Numbered from the stretch's first letter, positions 17,412 through 64,000 are shown. The stretch is 64,000 nucleotides of DNA from an uncultured bacterium (GCA_964387845.1 CAYLXA010000013.1:25521-89520); one strand, 5' to 3'. Made by a program: numbers and translations. The notes: generated from the sequence alone by a model not told the origin.

Positions 17412-17488
17412 ACTCCTAGTTGTAAGTTGTAAGTGGTAAGAGATAAGTAAAAAGCTTTTAACTTAACACTTATCACTTACCACTTATG
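17412..17488. repeat. Palindromic intergenic element of the TAAGT-heptad family (family T), sitting inside the nuo operon between nuoD and nuoI
   Basis: gttgtaagtggtaagagataagt ... acttatcacttaccacttat forms inverted arms around an AT-rich loop. It is built of repeated NNTAAGT heptads. Related copies lie at 36990, 37549, 37975 and 46729. Confidence 0.7.
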
Positions 17489-17490
17489 CC

Positions 17491-18654
17491 TTATCTATCA
17501 ACTTCCCCTAAAACGATATCAACACTTCCAAGAATAATGACAGCATCCGCCACTTTGTGGCCGAGGCACATATCTTCTAAAATCGTCAAATTAACAAAGC
17601 TGGGCGCACGGACGTGATAACGATATGGTTTGTTCGTGCCGTCGGAAACCAGATAAAATCCAAGCTCGCCCTTAGGCGCTTCGATGCGGCTGTAAACATC
17701 GCCTTTCGGCGGCTTGAAGTTACGCGGCGTTTTTCCGATTGTGGCACCTTGCTTTGAAATATGCTCACCGGCCGGAATTTCTTTTACGGCCTGCTCCAGA
17801 ATCTTGATACTTTCACGCATTTCCAAAATACGGACATAATAACGGTCATACACATCGCCATGGTCGCCTAGCGGCACGCGGAACTTGAAACGATTATAAA
17901 TTCCGTAACCATCAACTTTGCGAATGTCGTAATCAACACCGGCCGCGCGAAGCATGGGGCCTGTGACACCTGCATTAATTGCCAAATCTTTGGGTAAAAC
18001 ACCGACGCCTTGCGTGCGGGACATTAAAATTTCGTTTTCGGAAAGCAATTTTTCGAATTCATCGAGAAACTTCGGATATTTTTGGATAACTTCTTTCACG
18101 CGAGGCAAAAAATCCTCCGTCACATCCAGTTTTTGTCCGCCGAAGCGGAAATAATTACACATCATGCGTGAGCCGGCAACGCTTTCGAATAAATCGAGAA
18201 TTTTTTCGCGCTCGCGGAATGCATAAAGCACGGGCGTAAAGAATGCGCCCAAGTCATTCAGCAAAAATCCGACGAGGAGCGTGTGATTCACAAGCCGCGT
18301 GAGTTCCGCCATGATGATTCGAATATACTGTGCGCGCTCTGAAACCTCGATTTTGGCGAGTTTTTCAACCGCCATTGCGTAAGAAAAATTGTTGGTCATC
18401 GAGCAGAGATAATCCAAGCGGTCCGTAAAGGGCATCGAGGCCAAGTAAGTCATATTTTCGGCGAGTTTTTCGTGATTGCGGTGCAGATAGCCCATGAAAG
18501 GCTTCAGCTGAACAATGTTTTCGCCGTCGAGTTTAATATCCATCCGGAACACGCCGTGCGTGGAAGGGTGCTGCGGCCCGAGGCTGACTTCGAGCGTTTG
18601 CGTGTCGAGCGTTTTATCGAGTAAATTATGTTCCATATTTATTTTCGTCGTCAT
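17491..18654 (-). CDS. nuoD: NADH-quinone oxidoreductase subunit D (49 kDa)
   Basis: The 387-aa protein has a typical NuoD N-terminus and the C-terminal LGEVDR. Confidence 0.9.
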
Positions 18655-18659
18655 TCTGA

Positions 18660-18710
18660 GGCGCAGCCGAAGAATCTAGATCCTTCGCTTCGCTCAGGAT
18701 GACGATTAAT
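18660..18710. repeat. Palindromic element between nuoC and nuoD, related to the elements at 32738 and 33528 (family G)
   Basis: tcgtcattctgaggcgcagccgaagaatctagatccttcgcttcgctcaggatgacga has a 13-bp outer stem with one mismatch. It shares the gtcatt..gaggcg / cgaag.aatct motifs with the repeats flanking 32893..33522. Confidence 0.55.
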
Positions 18711-18712
18711 TC

Positions 18713-20219: not shown

Positions 20220-20241
20220 CGATATCCGTTGATTATAGTTA

Positions 20242-20269
20242 ATCTGTAAGAAGTGTCAACACTGTGCTA
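20242..20269 (-). promoter_or_regulatory. Near-consensus sigma70 promoter for the nuo operon
   Basis: The minus strand reads TTGACA (20269..20264), a 16-nt spacer, then TATAAT (20247..20242). This puts it ~20 nt upstream of the nuoA start. Confidence 0.5.
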
Positions 20270-20370
20270 CTTATATAACGTTGGGAACATTTTCAAAGAA
20301 AGCGCAGGGTAGTCATGACTTCAACTAATTTAACGATTGAAAAATAAAAGGGAAGTCATGGCAACAACAC

Positions 20371-23300
20371 TTAAACCGAGAGAGAAATTGTGGTTGGTGC
20401 TTTCTCGACTAAAATTTCAAAAAGGATTTCGAAAAATGTTTTCACCGGATTTCCGGAAGGTTTTGGGCCGCCGCGCAAACGGATCATTTCGCCGTTGAAT
20501 TTGTCCAATTGCTGTAATGACGCAACGCCGATTTGCAGAGGGGCGACACGGGTTGAGCTTTGGATTAAAGACTTGGCAGTTGAAATCGGTTCATTCTGAA
20601 CTACCGCAGATTCATCAAGCGTTTCCAAACCTCCGGTTATTGTAGCAATTGCACCGGAAACATTTGCTTTTGTATTGGAGGCAGCCTGTCGCGGAACATT
20701 GCCGCTGCCGGATGCTGCCGCAGGCTGTGTTCCAGGGCTTGGGTTATTATAGGGCACAATCACGCCGACAATTCCCGGCGTATAATATCCGCCTGTGTTT
20801 TGAGGATTTGCCGTCTCTTGCGGTGAACCGTTTTCCGGCCCGCCTTCGTCCGGATTGGAATCCGGAGGATTCTGGGTTTCACCGTTGGTAGCGGGGCTTT
20901 CCGGGATAACTGCAAATGTTGCTTCTATCGTATGATCAGAAGTGACGTTATTAAATGTATAACTCGAAACCGCGCCGACGGAGGTTGAATTCACAAGTAC
21001 ATCTTGGATTTCGTAGCGCGAATCGGGCGTAATTGTAAAAGTCGCATTGTCACCTTCGTTGACCACAACATCTCCAACCGGTGAAATTTGGCCGCCTTCC
21101 GAAGCGCTTGCGGTAATTGTGAAGGCTAGTGGATTACATGGAGCGCCTTCCGGGCAAATACACATATCGTTTGCTTCATCGCATTCTTCACCGGTGTCAC
21201 AGGCAGAAGTTCCGGATTGGCATCCTGCTGTTGCATTACAAGTCTCGCTTCCGTTGCAGAATAATCCATCCGAACAAATCGAATCATCCGGCGTATTGGC
21301 GCAGCCGTTTACGGAATCGCAGGAATCATTTGTGCAGGAGACGCCATCATCACACACAAGCGGTGCGCTCGCCTGACAACCTAAGCCGGGGTCACAGGTC
21401 TCCGTACCGTTACACACATTGGCGTCATCGCACACAAGCGGTGTTCCGGCCTGACAGGTATTATTTACACAAGCTTCAGCGCCGTTACATAAATTTCCGT
21501 CGCCACACTCCGAATCACTGATACAAGCAAAACACTGATCATTCGGTTCATCACAATGGTCCGGATCCGAGCAAGGCTCGGTTCCGTTTTGGCAAATTCC
21601 GGCAATACAAATTTCGGCTCCTGTGCAGAATAACCCGTCAGAACAGCTCATACCATCCACAACCGGGGTTGATTCGCAGCCCGTTGCAGGATCACAAGCT
21701 TCCGCGGTGCATGGATTGCCGTCATCACAGACAAGCGGCGCGCCTGTTTGACAACCCAGCGTTGAGTCGCAACTTTCAGGGCCGTTACAGACATTTCCGT
21801 CATCACATGTTAGCGGTATCCCGGATTGGCAACCCAAGGCAGAATCGCAGGTTTCTGTTCCGTTGCAGATGTTGCCATCATCGCAAACGAGAGAAGTTCC
21901 GGCTGTACAGATGCCTGCCTGGCAAGTTTCCGTTCCATTACAAGCGTTGCTGTCATCACAGTCGGAGTCATTAAGGCATCCTGTGCATTGATCGTTTGTT
22001 TCGTCGCAGATCAGGTTTGGTCCTGAGCAAGGTGCCGGATTTGATTGGCAACCCAGAGCGGCGTTGCAGATTTCAGCTCCCGTGCAAAATAATCCGTCCG
22101 AGCAAACCGAATTGTCTGTTGTATGCACACATCCGCTCAAAGAATCGCAGGAATCATTCGTACAAGCAATTCCATCATCACAATTAAGAGGAACACCCGA
22201 TAAACAACCCAAAGTTGGATCGCAAGATTCAATACCGTTACACGCATCGGCGTCTCCGCAGTTTAATGGCGCACCCAACTGACAGCCAAGGACAGAATCA
22301 CAGGTTTCTGTTCCGTTGCAGAGGTTGCCGTCATCGCAAGCAAGCGGAGTTCCTGGCTGGCATGAACCCGAGACGCAGGTTTCTGTGCCATTACAGGTAT
22401 TGTTGTCTGAGCAATTTGCATCGGTTAAACATGCTTGCACTACGATAGTGATTGCCGGTGAAAATCCGCTGCCGAAACCGCCATCCTGAGGCGGCTGGGA
22501 CCAAGCCTGTACACGGGCGTAGTAAGTTCCGGTTTGTGAAATTACAAACGGTTCAAAAATTCCCGATGGCCAGCGTTCATCGATATTCTGTACAAAATTT
22601 GGATCCGGCGACAATTGTACTTGATAGATCGCAGCGCCCGGAACCGCGTCCCATTCCAAATTGAATGCTCCTAAATTCGGCGAAGGCGGATTTGCGCTCA
22701 CGCCGGGCGGCGCCGAGAAATTCACGGAAATCATAATATCGTCGGAACCTGTGAGCATCGAGTCATCTGCGGTCAACCGTAATTGATAAGAACCCGGATG
22801 CGAAAATGTAACGGACGTGCTGGTATTGTTCGGCGGATTGAATGTGGCGATACCGCCGGAGCTGGTTACTTGCGACCAGCTGACCGTCACCGCACCGGGC
22901 GGATTCGGCAGACCATCATCCGTCACGCCGCCGTTAATGATTGCCGAAGTGCCGAAAGCGACGGTTTGATCATTTCCAAGGTCAACGGTTGGATTTTCAT
23001 TCTGTAAAGTCGATTGGTACTCATACGGACCGATGTCGGTTTGCGCATCGCGCGGGCGGTCTCTGACGTCGGTATGCAAATTCGGCATCGGAAATCCCGC
23101 GTCAATGGCGGCTGATTCGCTGTGCAAATCGTAATCGTTGACCGAAGGAGCTTCTGAAAAATTAACCATCAACACATCCGTTGCGGTTTGCAGGCTCGAA
23201 TATGTGTCGACGCCGTTGAGAAATGACCGCCAGTTGTTGAAATTGGTTATGGGATCTGGTGACGACCACTCGATCCCGCCGGCTGCGAAATACTGACAGT

Positions 23301-26300
23301 CGATATAGATATTGTTGTTGTGCTGAATCGCCGCAAAATCTGTGTAGTTGAAGTAAGCTGCGCAATAAGCCGGCGCCGCTTCTTTTTTGTAAACGATGTT
23401 GTTTAAGAACTGAATGTTGGGGGCGCTTGACGGACTTGCCTCTGCGCCGATGAGGACCACGTAACTATCGTATCCGTTGCCGATCAGTAAATTGTTATAG
23501 AATCGGCCGTTTTCTTGGACGTTGTCCAAAGACAAAGCTTTTCCGATCGATGCGTCTACCACGTTATTAAAGAATTCAATGTTGGAACCTATGCCGCCGA
23601 CCGTGCCGTTGATGTAATTGTTGTAATAGCGGCTGTTACGGTTGAGTTGAAGTGCGCCCGAAAGGCCGGCGTTGATCGTTATGTTGTTCGAAAATAAATT
23701 GCCAGCAGCATGTCCATAAATCACATGGCCGTATCGGTCATAGGTGTATTGCCAAGGATCTGATATTTCTGAAAGGCATATCTCAACAGGATAGCTGGAG
23801 TCGTCGGCAATGACGAGAGGCCCGATATTTTCAAATCGGTTGTTCTGATAAGTAAAATAGTTATCAATTGTCGGGTGGGGCGTTAGATCCGCGATACCCA
23901 TGCTATTAAGGCTTCTGAGAGTACTGTCATAAACTTCGATATATTGACCGGGATTTCCGCCGGGCAGCGGGTTCATTTTAATACCTTCCTCGCCATGCTG
24001 AATGGTTAAGCCGATGAAACGGATGTAGGATGCTGACGTGTAAAACCGGTTTTGTCCGGGAAAGTAAAACGAATGTTCTGACGGGTTGGTCCCGGACGGG
24101 AGGCGAATGTATAAGCGCCCACTTGTGCAATCGATAAAATAAGCGTTGAATGAAGTATTGGAATTCGGGATTGTTAATACATCAAGCATATCTTGATGAC
24201 GGAGCATGCGGCTGAAGGGCCGTTCAAGATCCATGATTATGCCTCTCGGATAATTTCCTTCACCGCCGTTTGCGTTAGGATCGTATGTTCCAAGCGATGT
24301 ATCAGTCCACCAGATTGAATAATTGCCCGCGTTTTCTGAAAATGTCCAGTTTGAAGGAATGCTTGCTCCCGAATCAATGACCGGTGTTTCGCCGGGATAG
24401 TTTCGAATGGTTACCCACTGATTCGGCGCTCCGCCGCGATCCATAAGGTTGTAGGATCCAAACGGCTGTGTTCCACCGCGGATGTAAACCGTATCTCCAG
24501 GATTGAGCTGATCAAACGTTGCGCTTACATTGCAAATCGGCTGGGCAAGAGATCCGGGGCCGCTGTTGCTGCACGCCGGATTATTTGCATCAACTACGTA
24601 GTAATTTCCCGCGCAATCGTTTGAACAATCAAAATGGCTTTCACGCCGGAGATCACAGTAACCGTCACCGCAAGTCCCGGCGCAATCCTGCGAGCAGGTT
24701 TGAACCGTCTCTGGCGCTTCACAAATACCGTCGCCGCAAAGTGCGGTAGTGGTAACCGAAAAAGACGCTTCAATGGTGTGGGTTGTTTGTACGTTGTTAA
24801 ACGTATAACTGGAAATAGCGCCTTGCGAAACGCTGTCGACGAGCACATCCGTAATTTCGTAACCGATATTGGGCGTGATTGTAAATATTTGATCGCTGCC
24901 TTCGGCAACATTGACCGTGCCGTTCGGTACAATGTAGCCGCCGTTATTTGCTGTTGCATTAATTGAATGTGAAGGGCCTTCTACTTGGCAGATTGAGCTG
25001 CAGCCGTCGCCGCTTGCCGTATTGCCGTCGTCGCAAGTTTCATTGCCGACGACTAAACCGTCACCGCAAATTGGATTACATTCTGGGTTGCTGCCGGGAT
25101 TTACAGTGTCAACGGAACAGGTCCAACCGGCCTCGTAATAAATCGTGTCTTGCATAATGGCCGAAATGTTTCCAACACTATCAATCAATCTGGCAAACAC
25201 TGTCCGTTCACCGCTCGGCCCGCTGGCAAGTTTCCAGCGCATGACGTTTTCATACGGAGTCGGGTCACTCCAAATTGTTCCGTTATTAGAAAATATTACG
25301 GATGTGATCGAGGATCCGCCTGAGTCAGAAACCGTTAAGTAGATATGCGAGTCTAACGAATAAGTAACCGCCGCGTCATTCTCAATCAGTATTGTTCCGC
25401 TCGGCGGTTCAAGATCAACGACAAACTGAACCACATTGGAATATTCGGTTGGGTTCCGCCCAAGTTGAAACGGCGGCACGGGCGGTGATTCCCATCCGCG
25501 CACGCGGGCGTGATAAGTATTTGAGGTGCTCAACGAAACAGGAACAAACGTATCGTTTGACCAAAGAGTCGTAACATTGGAAGCAAAATTAGGGTCGGTT
25601 GAAATTTTGATTTCGTAAGCATTTGAGCCCAGCGACGGAGTCCAAGCGAGATTAAAATCGCCGTCATTGGGCGTTGCGGGTTGCGCCAGAACAGGCTGGA
25701 CGGCGGCTTGTGACGCAAAAGCCCCAATGTGGCAGCCTGTGCTTCCGGTTGGCGTGACGGAAACATTAAAACCGTTTTCGATGACATTAAGGCACATGCC
25801 CGAGTGGCTTGCAGGACTGCCCGGTTGAAGATTGAAATCAGCGTTTGCGAGATCCACAAATTGCGGATCTGCTTGAATATTTGAATCTGCCAGATTGAAG
25901 TTATTAAAATCAGCTACTGAGTAAAGCCCGCTCACCACGATTTGCCCGTTTCCGCCGCCATCTTTTAAAGCTCTAATAACCGAAGTTTCGTGGGCCGGAT
26001 TAGACGAGTAAATCAAATTATTTCGAATGTCATCGCCGTATCCGCCAAAATTCGTATCAACATATTCCAGCGGATCGTAATGAAGCATTAGTAGCTCAGC
26101 ATTGAAAGTATTGCCGAAAGAGACTGGTGAAACATAATCATGGTTGGCATCCATCAAAATATTGTTCCAGATGCGGACATTATATATAGCATTCAGGGCG
26201 TCCGGAGGATTCCAGTTGAAATTGGCAGTATAAATTCCACGCGGCCCCGGACTGTGAATGGTATTGTTAAAGATGTATACGTCCTGAATTAAATTTTGGT

Positions 26301-29300
26301 CAGCAACATTTGCAACGAGCGTGATTCCGGTAGAATCGTTAAATCCGTCATAAATAACGTTATTGTAAATGTAAAGTCGTTCTGTTTTTCCGGGCCCGAT
26401 TTGAATTGCGCCGCCGCGGTGATTTGATTCTGAAGGGAATTGGTTGGTTCCAAAAAACGTGTTATTTCGAATAATCGTATTTTGTGAAATGCCGGGATTT
26501 CCGTCAATTGAACCGATGCCGAATGAAGTGTGAAACCGATTTCGGAATGTATTATTCTCTATTAAAACATTTTCAGAATTCCGGAAACCGACAGTTCCAT
26601 GTCCGCAATCACCGAACCAGCTGTTTTTAATAGTCGTATTTCTTGCATCATCGCCAACAATTCCGTCAACGCCGCCGCCGTTCATCAGAAGCAAGCTCGG
26701 GCTTGCCGTGCAATTTAAATTTAAATTGTCAATCTCTACTCCATCGGTATCGAGAACTTTAATTCCGTTTGCCCAAGGTTCCGCGTAACTTTGCTCCGGC
26801 GGCCAGCGGTGGCCAATGCCGATATCATCATTTCCGGTGAATGAAGTGACTGATATATTTTTGAGCTTGACGCCATTTGACCGTTGAATGCCAAGCACGT
26901 AGGGTGCATACAATCTTCCGCCTGCGGTATCGATATGCCCAATGAAATTTAATGAATCAAAAGTAATGTCGTTTGCCAAATAAGTTGTCAGCATATATAT
27001 GCCGATATTGCTGCCTTGAGCCGTCATACTGCTGCCGTGTAAATTCACGGTTTCATTCGGATAGCCGCGAATCGTAATCGGGTTTGCCTCAGTTCCCGAA
27101 CTTCGGATGACAATAAAATTGTTTGCATCAATGTAGGGGAGGAAGTAATCGCCGCCCCGAATGTAAACCGTATCGCCGATATTTAATTTTTCATAAGGAG
27201 ACGTTTCACGAAGCGCTCTCGGCGTGCACCACGGCGTATTGGGATCGAGTGCTTGAGTTCTTGAGTAACTGTCCGAACAGTCACAATTATTTTGATCAAT
27301 GAAAAGCATATTAGTTCCGTTCGCAAGCTCTTGCGGGTCGGAACTGCCGACCGTGCATCCGCCTTCGGATTGGCTTGTATATTCAAATGCGCCGGGCGCG
27401 CAACTTCCGCTTTCAGGACGCGGATTTCCGTCAAAATCCACCGCAACTTCCGGAAGACAAGGGACCGAGCCGATCGCAGGGCTGTCCTGCTGTAAATGAA
27501 AATCGCCGATACCAGCGTTTACGAAAAGCGGGTTGCCGTCTACGTTGTCTTCGGCGAATGACAGTGCATTAAATTCGTCGATGGTGTAGTGATAACGCTG
27601 CGTGTTCCGATTGTTGGTGCTTTGGACCGGGTCTTCGGCAGGATTGAGTTCTTTGACCCAGTTATTTTCAAACACATTTCCATAGCCATTTTGGCCTTCA
27701 AAATCCCAGCCGCCCAGCCGGATTTCGCCGTGAATTTGTTCTCCTTCGCCCGTATAAGTTTGAATTCCGTAGAAAATATTATTTTTGATTTGATTATTAT
27801 TGGCCCAATTATTTTGGCCGAAAACGCCGTTATTGCCGACGCTCATGTTGGCGTAGCCTGTGTTGTAAACCGTGTTGTGAAAGATTTTATTGTTGTTGGC
27901 TTCAAAGAATCCGGTGCCGGGCCCGTTTTGATCCTGAGAATTGGCAATCGAAATTCCGTTTCCATTTAATGCGCCGTTGTAAATCACATTGTTATAAATC
28001 AGGTTGTCACTGGCCCCCAAAATCTGAATGCTGTTTGCGCGAAGCGTGGTCTCCGAAGGAATTGAATTGTAAGTATGAAACGTGTTATTCCGGATGATGT
28101 TATCGTGAGAACCGACACCAACGGCGATATTGGTATGGAGCGTATTTGAAAAATCATTATTTTGCACCAAAACGTCATGCGTATTAAAACGAAGCACAAG
28201 TAGAATGTGGCCGCAGTCACGGAATGTATTGTTTTCGATTAAGCCGCCCGAGACATAATCCATCATGATGCCATCGCCGGAATAGCGGTTGTCCGGGTTA
28301 ATTTGATCGTTAACTTGCATGCATCGGAAAAAACTATTCTTCACTGTGATGTTGCTTGCATTATCAAATTCGATGCCGTTGCCATAAGGTGCATTAGGAG
28401 CGCGATCGTCGTAGCCGATGTCATCGGTGCCTTTGAAGTCAACAACCGAAATGCTGTCAAATACAATATCGCTGCTTCCGCTGACAACCTCAATGACTCG
28501 CGGGCCATACAATTTTCCGTTTGGGTTACCAACATCCACGTTGCCGACAAAATGAAGATTTTCAAATGTGATGAAATGAACGTCATTCAGAACAAATGTG
28601 CGTTCGAACGCTGTGTGCGCACCGCGGATGACTGCCGTTTCGCCGGGATATGAAGTGAATGTAATTCGGTTGCTATCGCTTGTGCCCGATGAATTGATTC
28701 TGACTGTGGTATCGACGATCGGATATTCACCGCCGCGAATATAAACGGTGTCGCCTGCGTTTAATTTGTGATTGGGCCGGTTTTCATGAAAGCCAAGAGG
28801 CGAACACCAGGGTGTATAAGGATCGCGTGCCGCATACCGGTCTCCAGCGTCGCTGCAGTTGCAATTATTTTTATCCACAAAGAGAACATTGGCGCCGTTG
28901 GCAAGCCCTTGCGGGTCAGAGCTTCCGGCTATGCAGCCTCCGAGCTCTGATGGGTGATTGTTGGGATCGTTGGGATTAAATCCGCCTGCAAATTCTTCAC
29001 CGTCTGAGTAGCCGTCACCGTCTGTGTCCGGATTATTAGGATCCGTGCCGTTTTGAAATTCCTGCAGATTGATAAATTGATCATTGTCCGGGTCATCCGT
29101 GCCGTTTTGATTGAGATTGCCGAAGTGCAGCATTTCCCAAACGTCCGGCAAACCGTCTTGATCTGTATCTGAAGTGTCGTTGTAAACATACTCGAATGGA
29201 CCGATGTCGCAGGCAGCGCCTTGCGGCCGGATATGGTTGTCAAAATCAAAATCTACTTCAGGAACACAGATTCCGGCATCCACTGCCGAGCTTTGCTCGG

Positions 29301-32729: not shown

Positions 32730-32737
32730 GCTAGTAC

Positions 32738-32830
32738 TGTCATTGCGAGATACGTTATTTGGTATCGAAGCAATCTCGGTACTTAGATTGCTTCGGCACT
32801 GCACAACGCGCCTCGCAATGACGACTTGAC
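32738..32830. repeat. ~90-bp palindromic intergenic repeat (family G), copy 1
   Basis: gtcattgcgag ... agattgcttcggc ... aacgcgcctcgcaatgac. The outer arms are inverted repeats of each other. About 40 nt are near-identical to the copy at 33586..33625. Confidence 0.7.
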
Positions 32831-32892: not shown

Positions 32893-33522
32893 ATGGCGTT
32901 GTCCGATCTTTATAGCAATTTTCATTTGTTTTTCAGATGGCTTCACGTATTTGTCGGTATTATTTGGATCGGCCATCTGTATTTTTTCAATTTTGTGAAC
33001 GTCCCGCTTCAAGCCTCACTAGATGATGCCGGCAAGAAAGTCGTCAACCCAAAACTGATGCCGCGCGCACTTTGGTGGTTCCGCTGGGGCGCCATGCTCA
33101 CGTTTATTTCCGGGTTGATTCTTTATACGATGATTTACATGTATACGCCGGGAGCCGGATTTGGCCCTTCATCCGCGTTTCGTGATCTTTTCGGTAATAT
33201 TACGGGTAGATCAATTTGGATTTTAATCGGAATGTTATTTGGCACGATTATGTGGTTCAACGTGTGGTTTATTATTTGGCCTGCTCAGAAAGCTCTTTTA
33301 TCCGGAAAAGTTCCGGCCGATCAAGCCGCCGGCGTTCGCCGCAGAGCCTATTTGGCGTCACGTACAAATACCTATCTGTCGGGCCCCATGCTTTATGGTA
33401 TGTTGGCTCCGGGGCATTACGGCGCGTTTAGCTGGGTGACGTTTTTGGTGTTTGGTTTGGTGGCGGTGGCCTTGATTTTCCACGCCATTCAGAAATCCCC
33501 CAAAGTCGGTACGTCAGTTTGA
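32893..33522 (+). CDS. Polytopic membrane protein, possibly of the HemJ/UPF0093-like family
   Basis: The 209-aa protein has 4-5 TM helices. Its first helix has the F-W-L-H-x-F-V-G-I-I-W-I-G-H-L-Y-F pattern, reminiscent of HemJ-type proteins. An RBS GGAGGAGG sits 6 nt upstream. Family G repeats flank the gene on both sides. Confidence 0.55.
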   Translation: MALSDLYSNFHLFFRWLHVFVGIIWIGHLYFFNFVNVPLQASLDDAGKKVVNPKLMPRALWWFRWGAMLTFISGLILYTMIYMYTPGAGFGPSSAFRDLFGNITGRSIWILIGMLFGTIMWFNVWFIIWPAQKALLSGKVPADQAAGVRRRAYLASRTNTYLSGPMLYGMLAPGHYGAFSWVTFLVFGLVAVALIFHAIQKSPKVGTSV

Positions 33523-33527
33523 TCTAA

Positions 33528-33625
33528 TCGTTATTGCGAGGCGCCTTAATCAGCGTCGCGGCAATCCCTGTTCTGAGATTGCTTCGGCGTTAATCAACGC
33601 GCCTCGCAATGACAGTTCAATTTAT
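33528..33625. repeat. ~95-bp palindromic intergenic repeat (family G), copy 2
   Basis: ttattgcgaggcgcc ... agattgcttcggcgttaatcaacgcgcctcgcaatgac. It has the same architecture as copy 1 and sits between convergent genes. Confidence 0.7.
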
Positions 33626-36983: not shown

Positions 36984-36989
36984 TTTAGT

Positions 36990-37028
36990 GATAAGTTGTA
37001 AGTGGTAAGTGCTAAGTTAACTGCCAAG
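36990..37028. repeat. Family T (TAAGT-heptad) repeat between sir and mec
   Basis: tagtgataagttgtaagtggtaagtgctaagttaa. Confidence 0.6.
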
Positions 37029-37548
37029 CAAGTTCCAAAAAATCTTTCTTCGTAGAATCCCAGCCGAATAATTTCGCACCGCGGGCTTTACCCCTGACTC
37101 GAACGGAGTCAGGGACTGCGTCGGCCGCGAAGCGATCGGCTTCGCTGTCCGCGCTGTCTTTTGTAACGTCGACTACTAAATAATTCACATCAGGCATCAG
37201 AGGGCTGCCATCAAACGTCGCTTGTTTTTTATCTTCGTCCGAAAAATAAGAACCGACATCAACGTGAGAATGATAAATAATCCGGATGACCTCGTCTTTT
37301 GTACGGGCGACTTTTTCGATATTCAAAAGGTCTTTGGGATCTAAAAAGTAGGCAGTTTTGCTTGTTCGCGGAAACTTTTGAGGGTCGCTTGCGTGCATTT
37401 CATCCTGCAAATTCCGGCAGGGAAACGAGTTTTCAAGACTTGCGGGAATCCCTTTTTTGCCGGTAATGATACCGCAACATTCGGAAGGATAGGCTGAAAT
37501 AGCATGGCGATAAACCGCGTCTATGATTCGTTTTTTGATTGTAACCAT
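37012..37548 (-). CDS. mec: JAMM/MPN+ metalloprotease (Mec-like CysO-cysteine peptidase)
   Basis: The JAMM motif IIYHSHVDVGSYFSDED (HxHx7Sx2D) is present, along with a conserved Glu and a Cys-Cys near the N-terminus. Genomic context is next to moeZ and cysM. Confidence 0.75.
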   Translation of the reverse strand: MVTIKKRIIDAVYRHAISAYPSECCGIITGKKGIPASLENSFPCRNLQDEMHASDPQKFPRTSKTAYFLDPKDLLNIEKVARTKDEVIRIIYHSHVDVGSYFSDEDKKQATFDGSPLMPDVNYLVVDVTKDSADSEADRFAADAVPDSVRVRGKARGAKLFGWDSTKKDFLELAWQLT

Positions 37549-37585
37549 AGTTGTAAGTGGTAAGCGCTAAGTGTTAAGTAAAAGG
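37549..37585. repeat. Family T repeat upstream-flanking the four-helix-bundle gene
   Basis: accatagttgtaagtggtaagcgctaagtgttaagt. It is in inverted orientation relative to the copy at 37975..38012. Confidence 0.6.
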
Positions 37586-37935
37586 GATTTTTGAAAACCG
37601 CAAAGCATTCTTCCGACCTCATCACAATTTTCTGAAATTAGTTCAAACTTTTCATGACTAATATAAGCCAAATCAAAGCCTAATAACAGATGATATTTAG
37701 TTTCTTCTAGAGAGCTATCAGCTAAGTTTAGAAAATGCAGAAATTCTTTCCTGCTTTTTCTCTTTTGTCCTTCTACGATGTTTGTAGAAATGGAAGCGGC
37801 AGCTCTGCGTAATTGACTAGATAATCCGAATTTTTCGTCTGACGGGAAGCTTTTAGTAATTTTATAAACTTCCAAAACCAATCGATGAGCTTTTTGCCAG
37901 ACTTTTAAATCACGAAATGTACTAATTTTATTCAT
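37567..37935 (-). CDS. Four-helix-bundle protein (the family often found in 23S rRNA intervening sequences)
   Basis: The 122-aa protein reads MNKISTFRDLKVWQKAHRLVLEVYKITKSFPSDEKFGLSSQLRRAAASISTNIVEG, the characteristic signature of that family. A strong RBS AGGAGGG is present. Inverted family T repeats flank the gene. Confidence 0.8.
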   Translation of the reverse strand: MNKISTFRDLKVWQKAHRLVLEVYKITKSFPSDEKFGLSSQLRRAAASISTNIVEGQKRKSRKEFLHFLNLADSSLEETKYHLLLGFDLAYISHEKFELISENCDEVGRMLCGFQKSLLLNT

Positions 37936-37974
37936 AAACCCTCCTTGAATTAATATGATTATTTAATTCGTGGA

Positions 37975-38012
37975 GGGAAAAACTTATCACTTACAACTTA
38001 CCACTTAAAACT
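37975..38012. repeat. Family T repeat in inverted orientation, downstream flank of the four-helix-bundle gene
   Basis: acttatcacttacaacttaccacttaaaacttag, which is the reverse complement of the TAAGT-heptad unit. Confidence 0.6.
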
Positions 38013-39184
38013 TAGTACCTTGCCATGCTCGGATCAACGCGCTCAGCCCACACATCGATTCCGCCGGTCAGGTTTTTCAACTTCTTAAACCCGCGCGATT
38101 GAAGGATTTGCAGCGCTTTCATGCTGCGCCCTCCGTGATGGCATTGCAGCACAATCTCTTTTGAGGGATCAAGCTCTCCGGTTCGATTTTGAATTTCACC
38201 CAGCGGAATGAGTTTTGAACCTTCAATGTGGCAAATGTCGTATTCAAACGGCTCGCGAACATCAATCAAAACCACTTCTTTCCTGTCGAGTCTCTTTTTG
38301 AGTTCTTCAACCGTGATTTCAATCGAATCGCCTTTTCCTTTTGCTGCATCTTCACCGACAGATTCCTGGCCGATCCGCAGGCCGCAAAATTGTTCGTAAT
38401 CGATTAATTTTTTAATCGTCGGATTTTTTCCGCAGATGGGGCACTCCGGATCTTTTCTTAGTTTCAATTCGTGAAAGCGCATCTTGAGCGCGTTAAATGT
38501 GAGAAGCCTTCCGATGAGCGGAGTGCCTTGGCCCGTGATGAGTTTTACGGTTTCGGTGGCTTGAATCACACCGACAACGCCGGGAAGAATTCCCAAAACT
38601 CCGCCTTCTGCGCAGCTCGGGACCATTCCGGGCGGCGGCGGTTCGGGATAAAGGCAGCGATAACAGGGCCCGCGTGTTGAATCAAAAACGGAAGCCTGGC
38701 CTTCAAATCGGAAAATACTGCCGTAAGCGTTTGGTTTGCCGAGCAAAACGCAGGCATCGTTTACGAGATAACGCGTCGGAAAATTATCGGTTCCGTCTGC
38801 GACGATGTCGTATTGTTTGATGATTTCCATCGCGTTCGAGGAATCCAGTTTGGTTTCGTGCTCGATCACATTGACGTTCGGATTAATCTCGCGAAGCCGA
38901 GCTGCAGCCGTACCGACTTTGGATTTTCCGATATCTTTGGTGCCGAACAAAACCTGGCGCTGCAAATTGGTGTGATCGACGACGTCAAAATCAATCAGCC
39001 CGAGCGTTCCGATGCCGGCGGCTGCGAGATATAAGGAAAGCGGGGAGCCAAGGCCGCCCGTGCCGACACACAGGACTTTTGCGGCTTTTAGCTTTTTTTG
39101 CCCTTCGACGCCGATTTCAGGCAATATCAGATGGCGTGAGTAGCGCTTCAGCTCTTCAGTTGATAGATTTACTTCTTTTCCCAT
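38012..39184 (-). CDS. moeZ: Sulfur-carrier-protein adenylyltransferase/sulfurtransferase (MoeZ/MoeB-type E1 with a C-terminal rhodanese domain)
   Basis: It has a ThiF/MoeB Rossmann fold (VLCVGTGGLGSP), a CxxC pair and a rhodanese domain with the active-site motif CHHGGRS. Confidence 0.85.
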   Translation of the reverse strand: MGKEVNLSTEELKRYSRHLILPEIGVEGQKKLKAAKVLCVGTGGLGSPLSLYLAAAGIGTLGLIDFDVVDHTNLQRQVLFGTKDIGKSKVGTAAARLREINPNVNVIEHETKLDSSNAMEIIKQYDIVADGTDNFPTRYLVNDACVLLGKPNAYGSIFRFEGQASVFDSTRGPCYRCLYPEPPPPGMVPSCAEGGVLGILPGVVGVIQATETVKLITGQGTPLIGRLLTFNALKMRFHELKLRKDPECPICGKNPTIKKLIDYEQFCGLRIGQESVGEDAAKGKGDSIEITVEELKKRLDRKEVVLIDVREPFEYDICHIEGSKLIPLGEIQNRTGELDPSKEIVLQCHHGGRSMKALQILQSRGFKKLKNLTGGIDVWAERVDPSMARY

Positions 39185-43428: not shown

Positions 43429-44361
43429 ATGAGCAGCAGAATTTATAACTCCATCGAAGAAGAAATTGCGGCGCTGAAAAAAGAGCGAAACGCGATTATT
43501 CTGGCGCACAATTATCAAGTCGGCGAAATCCAGGACATCGCGGATTTCACGGGTGATTCGCTTAAACTTTCTCAGCAAGCGGCCAAAACGGATGCGGATG
43601 TTATTGTTTTTTGCGGCGTTCATTTTATGGCTGAGACTGCGAGTATTTTATCGCCCAACAAAAAAGTTCTGATCCCTGATATGGACGCCGGATGTTCACT
43701 TTCCGGAATGATTAAGCCCGAAGACGTTCGCAAATGGAAAGAAGCACATCCCAATGGTGTGGTTGTGACTTATGTCAATACCTCCGCGCAAGTCAAAGCC
43801 GAGTCTGACTATTGCTGCACGTCCTCCAATGCTGTGAAAGTGGTTGAAAGCATTCCGCGCGATAAAGAAATTCTGTTCGTTCCTGATTTTTATTTGGGAT
43901 CTTACGTTAAAAAGCAAACCGGCCGCACCAACATGACGGTTTGGAACGGTTATTGCCACGTTCACGTGATGATCAGCTCCCAAAAAATCGATGAAATGCG
44001 CCACGAACATCCGAAGGCGGAAGTTTTGATGCATCCGGAATGCAGCTGCATGACGAAAGTGATGGATAAAGCGGATCAAGTTTTATCAACGGAAGGCATG
44101 GTGAAGCATGTCCGTGATTCCAAGAAAAACGAATTTGTGATTGCGACTGAAACGGGCGTTATTCACAAAATGGAAAAAGAAAATCCCGGCAAAAAGTTTT
44201 ATCCGGCGGTTCAGCAGGCCGTTTGCGGTTACATGAAGCTCAACACGCTTGAGAAAATTGTACGCACACTTGAGAAATTGCAGTACGAAGTAAAAGTCCC
44301 GGAAGATATTGCGCGCCGAGCGCGTATTCCGATCGAAAGGATGCTTCAAATAGTTCCATAA
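43429..44361 (+). CDS. nadA: Quinolinate synthase
   Basis: The 310-aa NadA fold has three repeats. It starts directly at the thiC stop. Confidence 0.9.
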   Translation: MSSRIYNSIEEEIAALKKERNAIILAHNYQVGEIQDIADFTGDSLKLSQQAAKTDADVIVFCGVHFMAETASILSPNKKVLIPDMDAGCSLSGMIKPEDVRKWKEAHPNGVVVTYVNTSAQVKAESDYCCTSSNAVKVVESIPRDKEILFVPDFYLGSYVKKQTGRTNMTVWNGYCHVHVMISSQKIDEMRHEHPKAEVLMHPECSCMTKVMDKADQVLSTEGMVKHVRDSKKNEFVIATETGVIHKMEKENPGKKFYPAVQQAVCGYMKLNTLEKIVRTLEKLQYEVKVPEDIARRARIPIERMLQIVP

Positions 44362-44468
44362 ACTTAAATTCAAATATCAAATTTCAAATATCAAAATTTC
44401 GCTTGTTTCGAATTTTAAATTTTTGTGATTTGAATTTGTTTTTAATTTTGAAATTTGGATTTTGATAT
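44362..44468. repeat. AT-rich ~100-bp imperfect-palindrome repeat (family F), copy 1, upstream of ispG
   Basis: caaatatcaaatttcaaatatcaaaatttcgcttgtttcgaattttaaatttttgtgatttgaatttgtttttaattttgaaatttggattttgatatt. It is ~90% identical to the copy at 45535..45640. Confidence 0.7.
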
Positions 44469-45534
44469 TATGAATAAACGACGCAAATCCAGACAAGTTA
44501 CGATCGGCGGTTTAACGCTTGGCGGCAATGCCCCGATCCGAATTCAATCCATGACCACCACGCACACGCGCGATGTGGCCGCAACGGTGAAACAAATCAA
44601 TGAACTTGCTGAAGCCGGCTGCGAAATGGTCCGCGTCGCATGTCCCACGGAAGAAGATGCCAAATCACTTGGCGCTATCAAGAAGCAAATCAAAGTTCCG
44701 CTCATTGCAGATATTCATTTTAATTATAAACTCGCGTTAATTGCGCTTGAAGAAGGTGTTGATAAATTGCGCCTGAACCCGGGCAACATCGGCGGCCGAG
44801 ACCGCGTTGAAGCAGTTGTCGCAAAAGCCAAAGAGCGCAAAGTGCCGATCCGGATCGGCGTCAATGGCGGTTCGCTCGAGAAAGATTTGATGGAAAAATA
44901 TGGGCCGGTTCCGCAAGCGATTGTGGAAAGCGCGCTTCGCCACATCAAAATTTTAGAAGACGTTGATTTTCACGACATCATCGTATCGCTCAAAGCGAGC
45001 GATGTTCCGACGATGATTGAGAGTTACCGTCTGGCGGCCAAAGCATTTGATTATCCGCTTCATTTAGGTGTTACGGAAGCCGGAACATTACTTCGCGGCT
45101 CGGTCTATAACGCGATCGGCGTCGGAAGTTTGCTCTATGACGGTATCGGCGACACCATTCGAATTTCTCTCACGGCGGAATCTGTGGAAGAAGTGAAAGT
45201 TGCGCGTTTTATATTGGAAGCCATCGGCCACCGGAAATTCGGACCGCGCGTGATTGCGTGCCCGAGCTGCGGCCGTGCGGAAGTCGATGTCTTTAAACTC
45301 GCGAATGAAGTCGAAAACCGTGCGATGAAATTGAAAGACCCGATGGTGATTTCCGTTTTAGGCTGTGTCGTCAACGGCCCCGGCGAAGCGCACGAATCTG
45401 ATTTCGGCATCACGGGCGGGAAAGACAAAGGCATGGTTTATATTGATGGTCAGCAGCACAAAACAGTTCCCGAAGAAAAGTTGGTCGATGAACTTTTTAA
45501 CGAAATCGAAAAGAGAAAGAAAAAGCAACCGTAA
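44455..45534 (+). CDS. ispG: 4-hydroxy-3-methylbut-2-en-1-yl diphosphate synthase (MEP pathway)
   Basis: The 359-aa GcpE protein starts QVTIGGLTLGGNAPIRIQSMT and has the C-terminal Cys triad CPSCGR...GCVVNGPGE. Confidence 0.9.
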   Translation: MDFDIMNKRRKSRQVTIGGLTLGGNAPIRIQSMTTTHTRDVAATVKQINELAEAGCEMVRVACPTEEDAKSLGAIKKQIKVPLIADIHFNYKLALIALEEGVDKLRLNPGNIGGRDRVEAVVAKAKERKVPIRIGVNGGSLEKDLMEKYGPVPQAIVESALRHIKILEDVDFHDIIVSLKASDVPTMIESYRLAAKAFDYPLHLGVTEAGTLLRGSVYNAIGVGSLLYDGIGDTIRISLTAESVEEVKVARFILEAIGHRKFGPRVIACPSCGRAEVDVFKLANEVENRAMKLKDPMVISVLGCVVNGPGEAHESDFGITGGKDKGMVYIDGQQHKTVPEEKLVDELFNEIEKRKKKQP

Positions 45535-45640
45535 TATCAAAATTCAAATTTCAAATATCAAAATTTCGTTCGTTTCGAATTTTAAATTTTATAATTTGAA
45601 TTTGTTTTGAATTTTGATACTTGAGTTTTGAATTTATAAA
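45535..45640. repeat. AT-rich ~100-bp imperfect-palindrome repeat (family F), copy 2, downstream of ispG
   Basis: tatcaaaattcaaatttcaaatatcaaaatttcgttcgtttcgaattttaaattttataatttgaatttgttttgaattttgatacttgagttttgaattt. Confidence 0.7.
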
Positions 45641-46728
45641 TGAATTCAATCTTCCATAACCCTGAACTCTCCGATATCGCAGAAAAAGTCCGCAGCCAGA
45701 CGCGTCTTTCGTTCGAGGACGGTGTCCGGCTCTTCAAATCCAATGATCTTCCCTTGATTGGAAGATTGGCCCACGAAGTCAGAACGCGTCTTCACGGCAA
45801 AAAAGTTTTCTATTCCATAAACCTGCACATGAATCACACAAATGTTTGTACGGCCCGCTGTTTGTTTTGCGCGTTTGCGCGCAGGCCCCATGAAGAAGGC
45901 GGCTACACTTTTTCAGTCGAACAAATCAAAGATGCGGTCCGAAAAGCTGTTGAGCGCTACCACATTAATGAAGTTCATATTGTGGGCGGCTTAAATCCCG
46001 ATTTGGATTTCAATTATTACCTCGATCTTTTCCGGATGATTCACACGAATTGGCCGAATTTATTTATCAAAGCACTCACAGCGGTTGAGATCGATGACCT
46101 CGCCGTTAGGTTCAATATGAGCTGGGAAGATGTTTTGCAGCAACTCAAAGATGCCGGGTTAAGCGGGCTTCCGGGCGGGGGAGCCGAGATTTTCCAGGAA
46201 GAGCGGCGCAAACGGATTTGCGCGGATAAAACCACTTCCAAAAATTGGCTCGAAATTCACCGGATTGCGCACCGCCTCGGGCTTGATTCCAACTGTACGA
46301 TTCTCTACGGACATATTGAATCCATCGAAGACCGCGTGGATCACATTCTACGTTTACGCGCGCTTCAGGACGAAACAAGCGGCTTTAATTCATTCATTCC
46401 GCTCGCGTTTAACGCGGAAAATACGCCGATTGAGAAATTGGGCGAACCGGACGGCTTTACAGATTTAAAAATGTGTGCCATCGCGCGGCTTCTATTTGAT
46501 AATGTTCCGCACATCAAGCTGCACTGGACATCACTCGATTTAAAAATGGCATCCGTCGGCCTTTATTTTGGTGCCGATGATTTGGGCGGAACCAATATTA
46601 ATGAAAAAATCATGCACGATGCCGGTAACGAAACGCCGGTCGATATGACGGAAGAAAAATTTCGCGCGTTCATCGAAAAATCCGGTTTTGAGCCGGTTCT
46701 TGTGGATAGTTCTTATCAAACCGTTTAG
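45640..46728 (+). CDS. Radical SAM enzyme of the MqnE/MqnC/CofG/CofH family. It is probably a futalosine-pathway menaquinone synthase.
   Basis: The 362-aa protein has the CxxxCxFC cluster motif (CTARCLFCAF) and the family's TIM-barrel layout. The assignment within the family is uncertain. Confidence 0.65.
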   Translation: MNSIFHNPELSDIAEKVRSQTRLSFEDGVRLFKSNDLPLIGRLAHEVRTRLHGKKVFYSINLHMNHTNVCTARCLFCAFARRPHEEGGYTFSVEQIKDAVRKAVERYHINEVHIVGGLNPDLDFNYYLDLFRMIHTNWPNLFIKALTAVEIDDLAVRFNMSWEDVLQQLKDAGLSGLPGGGAEIFQEERRKRICADKTTSKNWLEIHRIAHRLGLDSNCTILYGHIESIEDRVDHILRLRALQDETSGFNSFIPLAFNAENTPIEKLGEPDGFTDLKMCAIARLLFDNVPHIKLHWTSLDLKMASVGLYFGADDLGGTNINEKIMHDAGNETPVDMTEEKFRAFIEKSGFEPVLVDSSYQTV

Positions 46729-46800
46729 GGCAAGTTGTAAGTGGTAAGTGATAAGTGTTAAGTTAATCAAATTACTTAGCACTTACAACTTAGCACTTAG
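46729..46800. repeat. Family T (TAAGT-heptad) palindromic element between the two radical SAM genes
   Basis: gttgtaagtggtaagtgataagtgttaagttaatcaaattacttagcacttacaacttagcacttagcac. Confidence 0.65.

Positions 46801-63437: not shown

Positions 63438-64000
<563 letters not shown>

What the first reader, a model, noticed from the sequence alone, without database searches (positions are those of the whole stretch)
17412..46800. Dispersed TAAGT-heptad palindromic repeat family (family T), including copies inside operons
Elements built from NNTAAGT heptads (gttgtaagtggtaagtgataagt and its reverse complement) occur at 17412..17488, 36990..37028, 37549..37585, 37975..38012 and 46729..46800. A shorter shared 15-mer accatagttgtaagt recurs at 63166.

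Two copies are full imperfect palindromes with an AT-rich loop. They sit between co-oriented genes of the same operon (nuoD|nuoI, and the radical SAM pair), where they would be transcribed as stem-loops. This resembles REP/MITE-type elements that can act as mRNA-stability or processing sites.
Basis: seen in the sequence. Interest (0 to 1): 0.55.

Follow-up and report, generated by a model that had tools for sequence, protein, structure and literature searches.

The report
Heptad-armed hairpin elements inside operons
The TAAGT repeats are real and are the paired arms of an element like the intervening sequences of 23S rRNA, one copy carrying a small four-helix-bundle gene and two copies empty, wedged exactly between genes of operons; the same design turns out to surround this gene family in many bacterial phyla.

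Summary
NNTAAGT heptad arrays occur at five places, against none in shuffled sequence. Two are complete hairpins: nuoD|nuoI-like, and between two radical-SAM genes.

They enclose a gene (37567-37935, minus strand) of Pfam PF05635, the "23S rRNA intervening-sequence protein" (IVP/S23p, Avd-like).

I then tested 80 metagenomic and 33 distinct viral-contig IVP loci.
- Most are flanked by inverted repeats: 47 of 74 metagenomic loci exceed the 99th percentile of a control.
- The arms are mostly period-7 arrays whose unit differs by locus.
- The G-rich arm lies 5' of the C-rich arm.
- The gene runs in the sense of its neighbours.
- The arms start at the upstream stop codon and end at the downstream start codon.

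The Coxiella 23S IVS has the same parts and is cut by RNase III.

In a close relative the orthologous radical-SAM spacer holds a different palindrome, and the ThiF-JAB slot holds other cargo or none. The elements therefore turn over.

Best reading: an IVS-like, looped-out insertion transcribed with its host operon. RNase III processing is inferred, not shown. The mode of spread is unknown. This is a new variant of a known kind.

The parts
17417..17493 (-). ORF-less heptad hairpin 1, between nuoD (17491-18654, minus strand) and a NuoI-like 4Fe-4S gene (16811-17407, minus strand). On the + strand: TAAGT-type arm 17417-17448, loop 17449-17460, ACTTA-type arm 17461-17493.
   Evidence: (I3). The nuoD stop codon TAA (17491-17493) is the first three bases of the sense-strand G-rich arm. 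The AGGAG ribosome-binding site of the next gene lies just 3' of the stem foot.
46731..46803 (+). ORF-less heptad hairpin 2, between two Radical_SAM/CofH_C (MqnC/MqnE-like) genes at 45640-46728 and 46813-47913. Arm 46731-46763, loop 46764-46773, arm 46774-46803.
   Evidence: (I6, I7, I13). The upstream stop codon TAG is at 46726-46728. The downstream ATG is at 46813.
37982..38014 (-). 5' (G-rich, TAAGT-type in gene sense) arm of the IVP cassette. It overlaps the ThiF-rhodanese stop codon (38012-38014).
   Evidence: (I15, 84% complementary to 37549-37579).
37936..37981 (-). Leader of the IVP gene. A local hairpin pairs CCCUCC with the Shine-Dalgarno sequence AAGGAGGG.
   Evidence: minimum-free-energy and centroid structures.
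37567..37935 (-). Cargo gene: 122-aa four-helix-bundle protein (PF05635 23S_rRNA_IVP, TIGR02436; distant Avd homologue). Its last codons and its stop codon lie inside the 3' arm.
   Evidence: E 1.7e-41. (TIGR02436, E 3.3e-38; DGR Avd model 60.6 bits, below its 80-bit cut-off). (PDB 2GSC and 2RLD, five chains each). (pI 9.1).
37549..37579 (-). Proximal 3' (ACTTA-type in gene sense) arm of the cassette. It directly abuts the ATG of the Prok-JAB gene (37012-37548, minus strand).
   Evidence: (I15).
36985..37017 (-). Distal solo arm (ACTTA-type in the sense of the JAB gene), between the convergent sulfite reductase (35256-36983, plus strand) and JAB genes. It contains the JAB stop codon. In a 1051-nt transcript it is the predicted partner of the 5' arm.
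   Evidence: (I25, 89% complementary to 37982-38008).
63169..63183 (-). Relic: the outer terminus of an arm (ACTTACAACT on the minus strand) plus ATGGT, identical to the arm-JAB junction. It lies about 255 nt upstream of the 16S rRNA gene.
   Evidence: (2 exact matches, 0 expected).

Best explanation
The TAAGT-heptad repeats are the terminal inverted arms of an element of the same build as the ORF-containing intervening sequences (IVS) of 23S rRNA. Here the element sits in the spacers of protein-coding operons.

One copy is complete: G-rich arm, SD-masked leader, PF05635 (IVP/S23p) gene, C-rich arm. It is inserted exactly at the ThiF|JAB gene junction. Two copies are ORF-less hairpins, one is a solo arm, and one is a relic.

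Proposed mechanism:
- The element has no promoter of its own and is transcribed with the host operon.
- The two arrays pair in the RNA into a stem of about 30-35 bp. Because the arms are repeats, they can pair in several registers.
- The foot of the stem brings the upstream stop codon next to the downstream RBS or start codon. The insertion is therefore looped out of the operon's logic and tolerated.
- Such a stem is the kind of substrate that RNase III cuts in the rRNA-borne relatives. Cutting would release the loop RNA (the IVP mRNA) and separate the flanking cistrons.

Shown here: the anatomy, the family relationship of the copies, the generality of the IVP/heptad-arm design, its geometry and orientation, and turnover between relatives.

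Inferred: RNA pairing in vivo, RNase III cleavage, any effect on translational coupling or mRNA stability, and the way the element spreads.
For: 1. The arms at 37549-37579 and 37982-38014 are inverted repeats around a PF05635 gene. The 486-nt sense RNA is predicted to close with these arms (-134.5 kcal/mol, z -6.5).

2. The ORF-less hairpins share up to 29/29 bases with each other and 81-89% with the cassette arms. The loop-proximal ...TAAGTAAAA junction is also shared by hairpin 1 and the cassette's 37549 arm (I4-I7, D4).

3. Generality in metagenomic IVP loci:
- 47 of 74 have flanking inverted repeats above the 99th percentile of a mismatched-flank control.
- Period 7 is the best lag in 41/74 upstream and 33/73 downstream flanks, against 3/109 control regions.
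- The result is replicated in IMG/VR loci.
- It is also seen in Nostoc punctiforme PCC 73102 and Anabaena variabilis ATCC 29413 plasmids.

4. The same TAAGT...IVP...ACTTA architecture occurs in an Elusimicrobiota MAG (L017). IVP abuts TAAGT-type arrays in L003 and L061.

5. ORF-less arrays with the same unit lie near IVP cassettes in L173, L154 and pNPUN02.

6. IVP is co-oriented with both neighbours in 31/43 loci and antisense to both in 1/43. The G-arm starts a median of 0 nt after the upstream stop codon. The C-arm ends a median of 4 nt before the downstream start. In the window, the nuoD and ThiF stop codons are the first bases of the arm.

7. Published precedent (PMC4990558): the Coxiella 23S IVS has an S23p ORF, a 28-bp terminal inverted-repeat stem, and tandem heptameric repeats (GACAGAT) of variable number. 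[quoted passage not shown]

8. Turnover: the ThiF-JAB slot is empty in L208, holds a methyltransferase in L204 and a VanZ-like gene in L207. The radical-SAM spacer of L204 holds a GTCATTGCGAG palindrome in place of the TAAGT hairpin.
Against: - No RNA data exist for this organism, so pairing and cleavage are not shown.
- A test for RNA-strand-specific wobble pairs was neutral: G:U 69 against A:C 70 over 52 cassettes, and 2 against 3 in the window. The pairing constraint could therefore act on DNA as well as on RNA.
- The defining location of an IVS, inside 23S rRNA, is not met.
- Most TAAGT arrays found in other genomes have no IVP gene nearby. Only 3 of 120 loci have an IVP gene next to the array, and 101 of 144 arrays have no detectable partner arm. 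Many heptad arrays may therefore have an independent life.
- The AT-rich heptad hairpins of the same window have the opposite arm polarity.
- No mobility enzyme was identified.
Confidence: 0.6

Rival explanations
1. REP/REPIN- or MITE-type non-autonomous elements, mobilised in trans by a transposase encoded elsewhere in the genome (a RAYT, an IS200/IS605-type Y1 enzyme, or a DDE enzyme). On this view the IVP gene is an accidental passenger in one copy.
For: The family is dispersed, palindromic and extragenic but transcribed. TAAGT arrays in other genomes lie mostly between tandem (63) or convergent (20) genes and rarely between divergent ones (7), as REPs do. The element occupying a given slot turns over between relatives.
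Against: The only genes bracketed by arms are IVP and JAB. No consistent target-site duplication is visible at the three elements (read directly). The arms are arrays of a variable 7-nt unit, not one conserved palindrome. The IVP association is systematic across about 110 independent loci, not accidental.
Confidence: 0.15
2. The arrays act on DNA, not RNA. They would be binding-site arrays or cruciform or hairpin structures recognised by a protein, possibly the basic, pentameric Avd-like IVP itself. Their role would be recombination, replication or maintenance of the element.
For: There is no excess of G:U over A:C mismatches, so no signature of RNA-specific selection. The strict 7-nt periodicity with a conserved 5-nt core suggests a repeated recognition unit. 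The solved homologues 2GSC and 2RLD each have five chains. Arms here have about five units. Avd homologues bind nucleic acid (established knowledge of DGRs, recalled and not tested here).
Against: The heptad unit differs between the closest IVP homologues at 50-58% identity. A conserved protein-DNA code would not predict this. The sense orientation in operons and the stop/start geometry point to RNA and translation. RNase III cleavage of the homologous rRNA element is experimentally established (PMC4990558).
Confidence: 0.12
3. The arrays arose in place as microsatellite-like heptanucleotide expansions by replication slippage (comparable to cyanobacterial STRR). They would have no mobility and no function.
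For: Heptad number varies between copies and loci, and arrays can expand to hundreds of bases (L120, L043, L069). Coxiella strains differ in repeat number.
Against: Copies 29 kb apart share the same order of unit variants (29/29). Arms come in inverted pairs with a fixed polarity: the TAAGT arm comes first for 27 of 28 hairpin arms, and the G-rich arm is 5' in 47/52 cassettes. Slippage alone does not produce this.
Confidence: 0.05
4. The hairpins are intrinsic, possibly bidirectional, transcription terminators or attenuators.
For: They are strong hairpins in intergenic DNA. One arm lies between convergent genes.
Against: The stems are AT-rich, have no U-tract, and lie inside operons. The terminator scan finds nothing at any of the elements.
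Confidence: 0.03

Closest known systems
ORF-containing intervening sequences (IVS) of 23S rRNA (Leptospira; Coxiella burnetii S23p IVS; PMC4990558)
   Same: A PF05635 ORF sits in the loop. Terminal inverted repeats form a long stem. The 5' region contains tandem heptameric repeats of variable number. The element is transcribed as part of a host transcript. ORF-less versions also exist (the short IVSs of Salmonella and others, as cited in that paper).
   Different: The location is between protein-coding genes of operons, not in helix 9, 25 or 45 of 23S rRNA. Both whole arms are heptad arrays. Excision by RNase III has not been shown here. Here the stem foot joins a stop codon to a start codon rather than two rRNA segments.
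REP/BIME elements of enterobacteria and REPINs (from memory)
   Same: They are short, dispersed, imperfect palindromes in transcribed intergenic spacers of operons. They can stabilise or punctuate mRNAs. They are rare between divergent genes.
   Different: No RAYT association was found. The arms are internally repetitive with a 7-nt unit. One copy carries a gene. The unit sequence is not conserved across hosts.
Correia/NEMIS elements of Neisseria (from memory: transcribed MITEs whose terminal inverted repeats form hairpins cut by RNase III)
   Same: It is a precedent for an inserted repeat, co-transcribed with host genes, acting as an RNase III site in mRNA.
   Different: Correia elements have defined TIRs and a TA target duplication and carry no gene. 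None of these features is seen here.
Cyanobacterial STRR heptanucleotide repeats (from memory: Mazel et al. 1990)
   Same: Both are tandem 7-nt units in intergenic DNA. TAAGT arrays and IVP genes are both frequent in Nostocales.
   Different: The STRR units I recall (CCCCAGT, TTGGTCA, CAACAGT) were not the units found next to the Nostoc and Anabaena IVP genes (AGTCAGG, TCAGAAN). The link remains an untested lead.
Avd, the accessory protein of diversity-generating retroelements
   Same: The cargo protein is a distant homologue: PF22296 bAvd at E 3.7e-13, and the NCBIfam Avd model at 60.6 bits.
   Different: It scores below the Avd cut-off of 80 bits. No reverse transcriptase, template repeat or variable repeat lies nearby.

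Membership tests
23S rRNA IVS element (S23p/IVP type) | Inserted in the 23S rRNA gene (helix 9, 25 or 45) | tested here: not met
   All copies lie between protein-coding genes. The only rRNA in the window is the 5' part of 16S at 63438-64000.
23S rRNA IVS element (S23p/IVP type) | Terminal inverted repeats that form a long closing stem | tested here: met
   (I3, I15), 22, 50: predicted closing stems spanning about 24-35 nt of each arm with a few internal mismatches, z -5 to -6.5.
23S rRNA IVS element (S23p/IVP type) | PF05635 ORF in the loop (long IVS), or no ORF (short IVS) | tested here: met
   E 1.7e-41 for the gene at 37567-37935(-). The two hairpins have no ORF.
23S rRNA IVS element (S23p/IVP type) | Tandem heptameric repeats at the 5' end (described for Coxiella) | tested here: met
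   PMC4990558.
23S rRNA IVS element (S23p/IVP type) | Excised from the transcript by RNase III | not testable with these tools
   This needs RNA-end mapping or an in vitro cleavage assay.
REP / REPIN | Association with a RAYT (Y1 transposase) gene flanked by the repeats | tested here: not met
   The genes flanked by arms are IVP and Prok-JAB. The neighbours are nuoD, a NuoI-like gene, ThiF, sulfite reductase and radical-SAM genes. The rest of the genome was not available.
REP / REPIN | A single conserved imperfect palindrome of 20-40 nt, in hundreds of copies per genome | tested here: inconclusive
   Each arm is 30-35 nt and is made of about five 7-nt units. Only 64 kb could be counted: 3 loci plus 1 relic.
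MITE | Terminal inverted repeats plus a target-site duplication, derived from a known transposon | tested here: not met
   Reading the flanks of the three elements shows no consistent direct duplication. No parent transposon is present in the window.
Intrinsic terminator | GC-rich stem followed by a U-tract | tested here: not met
   no terminator-like hit at any element.
DGR (Avd + RT + TR/VR) | Reverse transcriptase and template/variable repeats next to the Avd-like gene | tested here: not met
   The neighbours are the ThiF and JAB genes of a conserved sulfur-carrier operon, also seen in L204-L208. The Avd model scores below its cut-off.
Any Rfam family | Match at the gathering threshold | tested here: not met
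   the only hits are SSU rRNA and nhaA-I, both elsewhere in the window.

The most novel reading that the evidence does not exclude
Inverted heptad arrays together with a PF05635 gene form a pan-bacterial class of operon-embedded, self-looping-out cassettes. The basic, pentameric, Avd-like IVP protein would be the element's own factor. It would recognise the roughly five-unit heptad arrays, as RNA or DNA, and mediate maintenance or spread, possibly with a reverse transcriptase acting in trans. ORF-less derivatives of such cassettes would then account for many unexplained heptanucleotide repeats, such as the cyanobacterial STRRs.
Probability: 0.15. Interest if true: 0.85.

Novelty: new variant of a known kind. 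Interest (0 to 1): 0.62.

Why it matters
The function and mobility of 23S rRNA intervening sequences and of their S23p/IVP proteins have been open since the early 1990s. The family is very large: a single-sequence search found at least 24,033 clusters at 50% identity.

If the rRNA IVS is only the best-known site of a general element that lives between genes of operons, three things follow.
- Thousands of 'four helix bundle protein' genes, and many heptanucleotide repeats, gain a common structural context.
- Operon annotation should expect looped-out insertions that supply stop codons and abut start codons.
- The biology becomes testable in tractable hosts. Nostoc punctiforme PCC 73102 and Anabaena variabilis ATCC 29413 carry the same design on plasmids.

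The design is also a natural example of an insertion that may keep neighbouring cistrons functionally adjacent.

In the papers I could search, only the Coxiella IVS study mentions the heptamers. I cannot exclude a description in journals outside that library.

Tried and rejected
1. Stop codons in all frames. The idea was that a 7-nt period, coprime to 3, places a stop codon in every frame. This is true for TAAGT. As a general rule it fails: 22/41 upstream units contain a sense stop, against 45% expected for that composition.

2. RNA-strand-specific wobble pairing. G:U against A:C was 69 against 70, and 2 against 3 in the window. The test is neutral and gives no support.

3. The TAAGT unit as a marker of one horizontally transferred IVP clade. 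This is rejected. The closest IVP homologues (50-58% identity) have other units: CTGTNCA, CAGTTGG, GAGTTNT, TTAGTGA.

4. Arm polarity as evidence of gene orientation. This is rejected on logic. A G-arm...C-arm palindrome reads the same on both strands, so the 47/52 and 27/28 results describe one property of the palindrome and say nothing about gene orientation.

5. Rfam gave no match. PADLOC gave none for IVP or JAB. The promoter and terminator scans found nothing at the elements.

6. Strain variants of the source. Only identical Logan contigs were found, and the NuoI-like protein is not on record.

7. Identity with STRR. The Nostoc and Anabaena units differ from the STRR units I recall, so this is left as a lead.

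8. The methyltransferase in the ThiF-JAB slot of L204 has no flanking arrays. That slot's variability is therefore not all due to this element.

9. Six literature searches (one further call failed on syntax) found no general description.


Full report
**1. The observation**

I read the five loci and the 63.1-kb site directly. Each contains arrays of the 7-nt unit NNTAAGT or its complement.

Exact TAAGT or ACTTA motifs spaced 7 nt apart form runs of 2-5 units only at these loci. The three-unit pattern with up to 1 mismatch gives 18 overlapping matches, all at these five loci. It gives none in 100 dinucleotide-preserving shuffles, and none in 30 Markov simulations.

Two loci are complete hairpins:
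- Hairpin 1: arms 17417-17448 and 17461-17493.
- Hairpin 2: arms 46731-46763 and 46774-46803.

Their loops are AT-rich. Predicted sense-strand energies are -30.8 and -31.5 kcal/mol, with z near -5 to -6. Arms 29 kb apart are complementary over 29/29 bases (I6).

The 15-mer lies at 63169-63183, not 63166, and is not expected by chance.

Pfam confirms the neighbours: nuoD and a NuoI-like 2x[4Fe-4S] protein, and two Radical_SAM/CofH_C genes.

**2.

The three 'single' arms near 37 kb are not independent. Arms 37549-37579 and 37982-38014 are an inverted pair, 84% complementary (I15). They enclose the gene at 37567-37935 on the minus strand.

That gene is a clear member of PF05635, '23S rRNA intervening sequence protein' (E 1.7e-41). 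It also matches TIGR02436, 'four helix bundle protein'. It resembles DGR Avd only weakly, below that model's cut-off. Its solved homologues, 2GSC and 2RLD, each have five chains.

The cassette sits between a ThiF-rhodanese gene and a Prok-JAB gene of a sulfur-carrier operon. A third arm (36985-37017) follows JAB.

The coding ends are interlocked with the arms:
- The TAA stop codons of nuoD and ThiF are the first three bases of the G-rich arm.
- The TAG stop codons of IVP and JAB lie inside C-rich arms.
- The JAB ATG directly abuts an arm.

The 486-nt sense RNA is predicted to close with the two arms around the IVP ORF (-134.5 kcal/mol, z -6.5). The IVP Shine-Dalgarno sequence is paired with an upstream CCCUCC. 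In a 1051-nt RNA the 5' arm is instead predicted to pair with the distal arm, which would enclose both IVP and JAB.

**3. Is the link between IVP genes and heptad arms general?**

The hits span many phyla: Bacteroidota, Cyanobacteriota, Patescibacteria, Elusimicrobiota, Omnitrophota, Acidobacteriota, Pseudomonadota and others.
- Most arrays are intergenic. They lie between tandem (63) or convergent (20) genes and rarely between divergent ones (7).
- 43 of 144 arrays have a detectable inverted partner arm. In hairpins the TAAGT arm is almost always 5' (27 of 28 arms).
- In an Elusimicrobiota MAG (L017) the architecture is exactly that of the window. IVP also abuts the arrays in L003 and L061.

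I then turned the question round and fetched 80 metagenomic loci encoding IVP relatives.
- 47 of 74 with usable flanks have an inverted repeat between the two flanks above the 99th percentile of a mismatched-flank control.
- The arms are nearly all arrays of a locus-specific 7-nt unit, for example AGGGACT, AGTGGNT, GTCGCGN, GAGTTNT, TTAGTGA, AGGATTG.
- Period 7 is the best self-match lag in 41/74 upstream and 33/73 downstream flanks, and period 8 in another 10-12. Only 3/109 control regions 800 nt away show period 7.
- Second IVP paralogues in the same loci have their own arm pairs.
- ORF-less arrays with the same unit lie nearby in L173 and L154.

The pattern is replicated elsewhere:
- 33 distinct IMG/VR loci show it.
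- Plasmids of Nostoc punctiforme PCC 73102 (unit AGTCAGG) and Anabaena variabilis ATCC 29413 show it.
- In Nostoc a same-unit solo array lies 7 kb away in another spacer.

The protein family is very large, with at least 24,033 clusters at 50% identity.

**4. Geometry and polarity**

- In 47 of 52 cassettes the 5' arm is G-rich and the 3' arm C-rich. Such a palindrome reads the same on both strands, so this is a property of the palindrome and not of gene orientation.
- Gene orientation is nevertheless strongly biased. IVP runs with both neighbours in 31 of 43 loci and against both in 1. This suggests that it relies on host transcription.
- The G-arm starts a median of 0 nt after the upstream stop codon. 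The C-arm ends a median of 4 nt before the downstream start. The window's copies follow the same rule.
- When the arms pair, the foot of the stem therefore places the upstream stop codon beside the downstream RBS or start codon.

**5. Turnover**

ThiF homologues point to Omnitrophota as the nearest named relatives, at about 69% identity. Syntenic loci were recovered.
- In L208, ThiF and JAB are directly adjacent.
- In L204, whose ThiF is 91% identical, a methyltransferase fills the slot.
- In L207 the slot holds a VanZ-like gene.
- The orthologous spacer between the radical-SAM genes in L204 holds a palindrome of a different family (GTCATTGCGAG...CTCGCAATGAC), in the same position from just after the stop codon to the GGAAAA before the ATG.
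- In its 21 kb, L204 has one heptad hairpin, with another unit (ACAGAGN).

The elements are therefore gained, lost or replaced on a short evolutionary scale.

**6. Comparison with what is known**

The Coxiella burnetii 23S IVS (PMC4990558) has these parts:
- an S23p (PF05635) ORF;
- a 28-bp stem made by terminal inverted repeats;
- tandem heptameric repeats (GACAGAT) whose number varies between strains.

[quoted passage not shown] That is the same set of parts.

That paper also records the old, unresolved ideas that an IVS is a transposition remnant, or a mobile element whose ORF aids mobility.

The elements here fail the defining location of an IVS, since they are not in 23S rRNA. I therefore file them as a variant of that kind, not as members.

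REP, MITE, terminator, DGR and Rfam memberships were each tested and not met. I found no general description of heptad-armed IVP cassettes outside rRNA in the searchable literature. Absence from that library is not proof of novelty.

**7. Mechanism and its limits**

I commit to a looped-out, IVS-like insertion.
- It is transcribed with the operon.
- Its repetitive arms pair robustly in the RNA.
- The stem foot keeps the flanking cistrons adjacent.
- The stem is a likely RNase III substrate, and cleavage would free the IVP mRNA.

The anatomy, generality, geometry and turnover are shown. Pairing in vivo, cleavage, any effect on coupling or stability, and the means of spread are inferred.

Two ideas failed:
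- The all-frame-stop rationale for a period of 7 is not general.
- There is no excess of G:U over A:C mismatches. A DNA-level role cannot be excluded.

Most TAAGT arrays elsewhere lack both a partner arm and an IVP gene. The AT-rich heptad hairpins of this same window have the reverse polarity. The class is therefore broader and less uniform than the cassette model alone.

**8. Verdict**

It is a local instance of a widespread and, as far as I can find, undescribed extension of the IVS design into operons.

- Novelty: new variant of a known kind.
- Interest: 0.62.
- Confidence in the structural identification: about 0.8.
- Confidence in the full mechanistic statement: 0.6.

Noticed in passing
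window 44360-44478 and 45527-45644: This is a second family of heptad-based hairpins, AT-rich, with unit WTCAAAT / ATTTGAW. The two copies are 80-88% alike and flank the ispG (GcpE) gene on both sides. They fold with z -4.5 and -3.6. Their arm polarity (C-containing arm first) is the reverse of the TAAGT family and of most IVP cassettes.
   Followed up: partly
window 32736-32829 and 33523-33616; L204 2291-2391 and 4641-4745: This is a third palindromic family, GTCATTGCGAG...CTCGCAATGAC, about 85-95 nt long, with z -5.6 and -7.5. It flanks a Urate_ox_N-like membrane protein gene (32893-33522). The same family fills several operon spacers in the 91%-ThiF relative, including the slot that holds the TAAGT hairpin here. 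L204 also carries GTCATTCCCGCGAAAGCGGGAATC-type palindromes.
   Followed up: partly
window 37936-37981 (minus strand): The IVP leader is predicted to pair CCCUCC with the gene's own Shine-Dalgarno sequence AAGGAGGG. If so, translation of the cargo gene may be masked until the structure is opened or cut.
   Followed up: no
L204 11128-11916; L207 2010-2519; L206 5164-5703; L208 5094: The ThiF|JAB junction is a variable slot across relatives. It is empty with overlapping stop and start in L208, holds a methyltransferase in L204 and a VanZ-like gene in L207, and is an uncalled 540-nt stretch in L206 that resembles the L207 gene. The non-IVP cargos examined have no heptad arms.
   Followed up: partly
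window 9860-9913 (minus strand): An nhaA-I riboswitch matches above the Rfam gathering score (44.1 bits against 37).
   Followed up: no
window 63438-64000: This is the 5' 541 model positions of a bacterial 16S rRNA gene, cut by the window end. The arm relic at 63169-63183 lies about 255 nt upstream of it, on the opposite strand.
   Followed up: no
window 20371-31257 (minus strand): This is a giant 3628-aa ORF with many internal repeats spaced about 78 nt and multiples apart (families D1-D3). The orthologue in L204 carries Beta_helix, DUF4215 and Flg_new hits.
   Followed up: no
L120 6860-7320 (Arcticibacter sp. MXS-1): TAAGT heptads form part of a higher-order satellite. Blocks of 3-7 TAAGT units alternate with GAGTTGC AAGTTGT GGGTTTT units for more than 450 nt. 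Heptad arrays can therefore expand far beyond hairpin size. The IVP gene 3 kb away has its own GCTAACA-type arrays.
   Followed up: no
L001 ends (window 36989 and 44393): A short-read (Logan) contig of the same sample ends inside the solo TAAGT arm and inside the AT-rich heptad hairpin. This is consistent with these repeats breaking assemblies.
   Followed up: no
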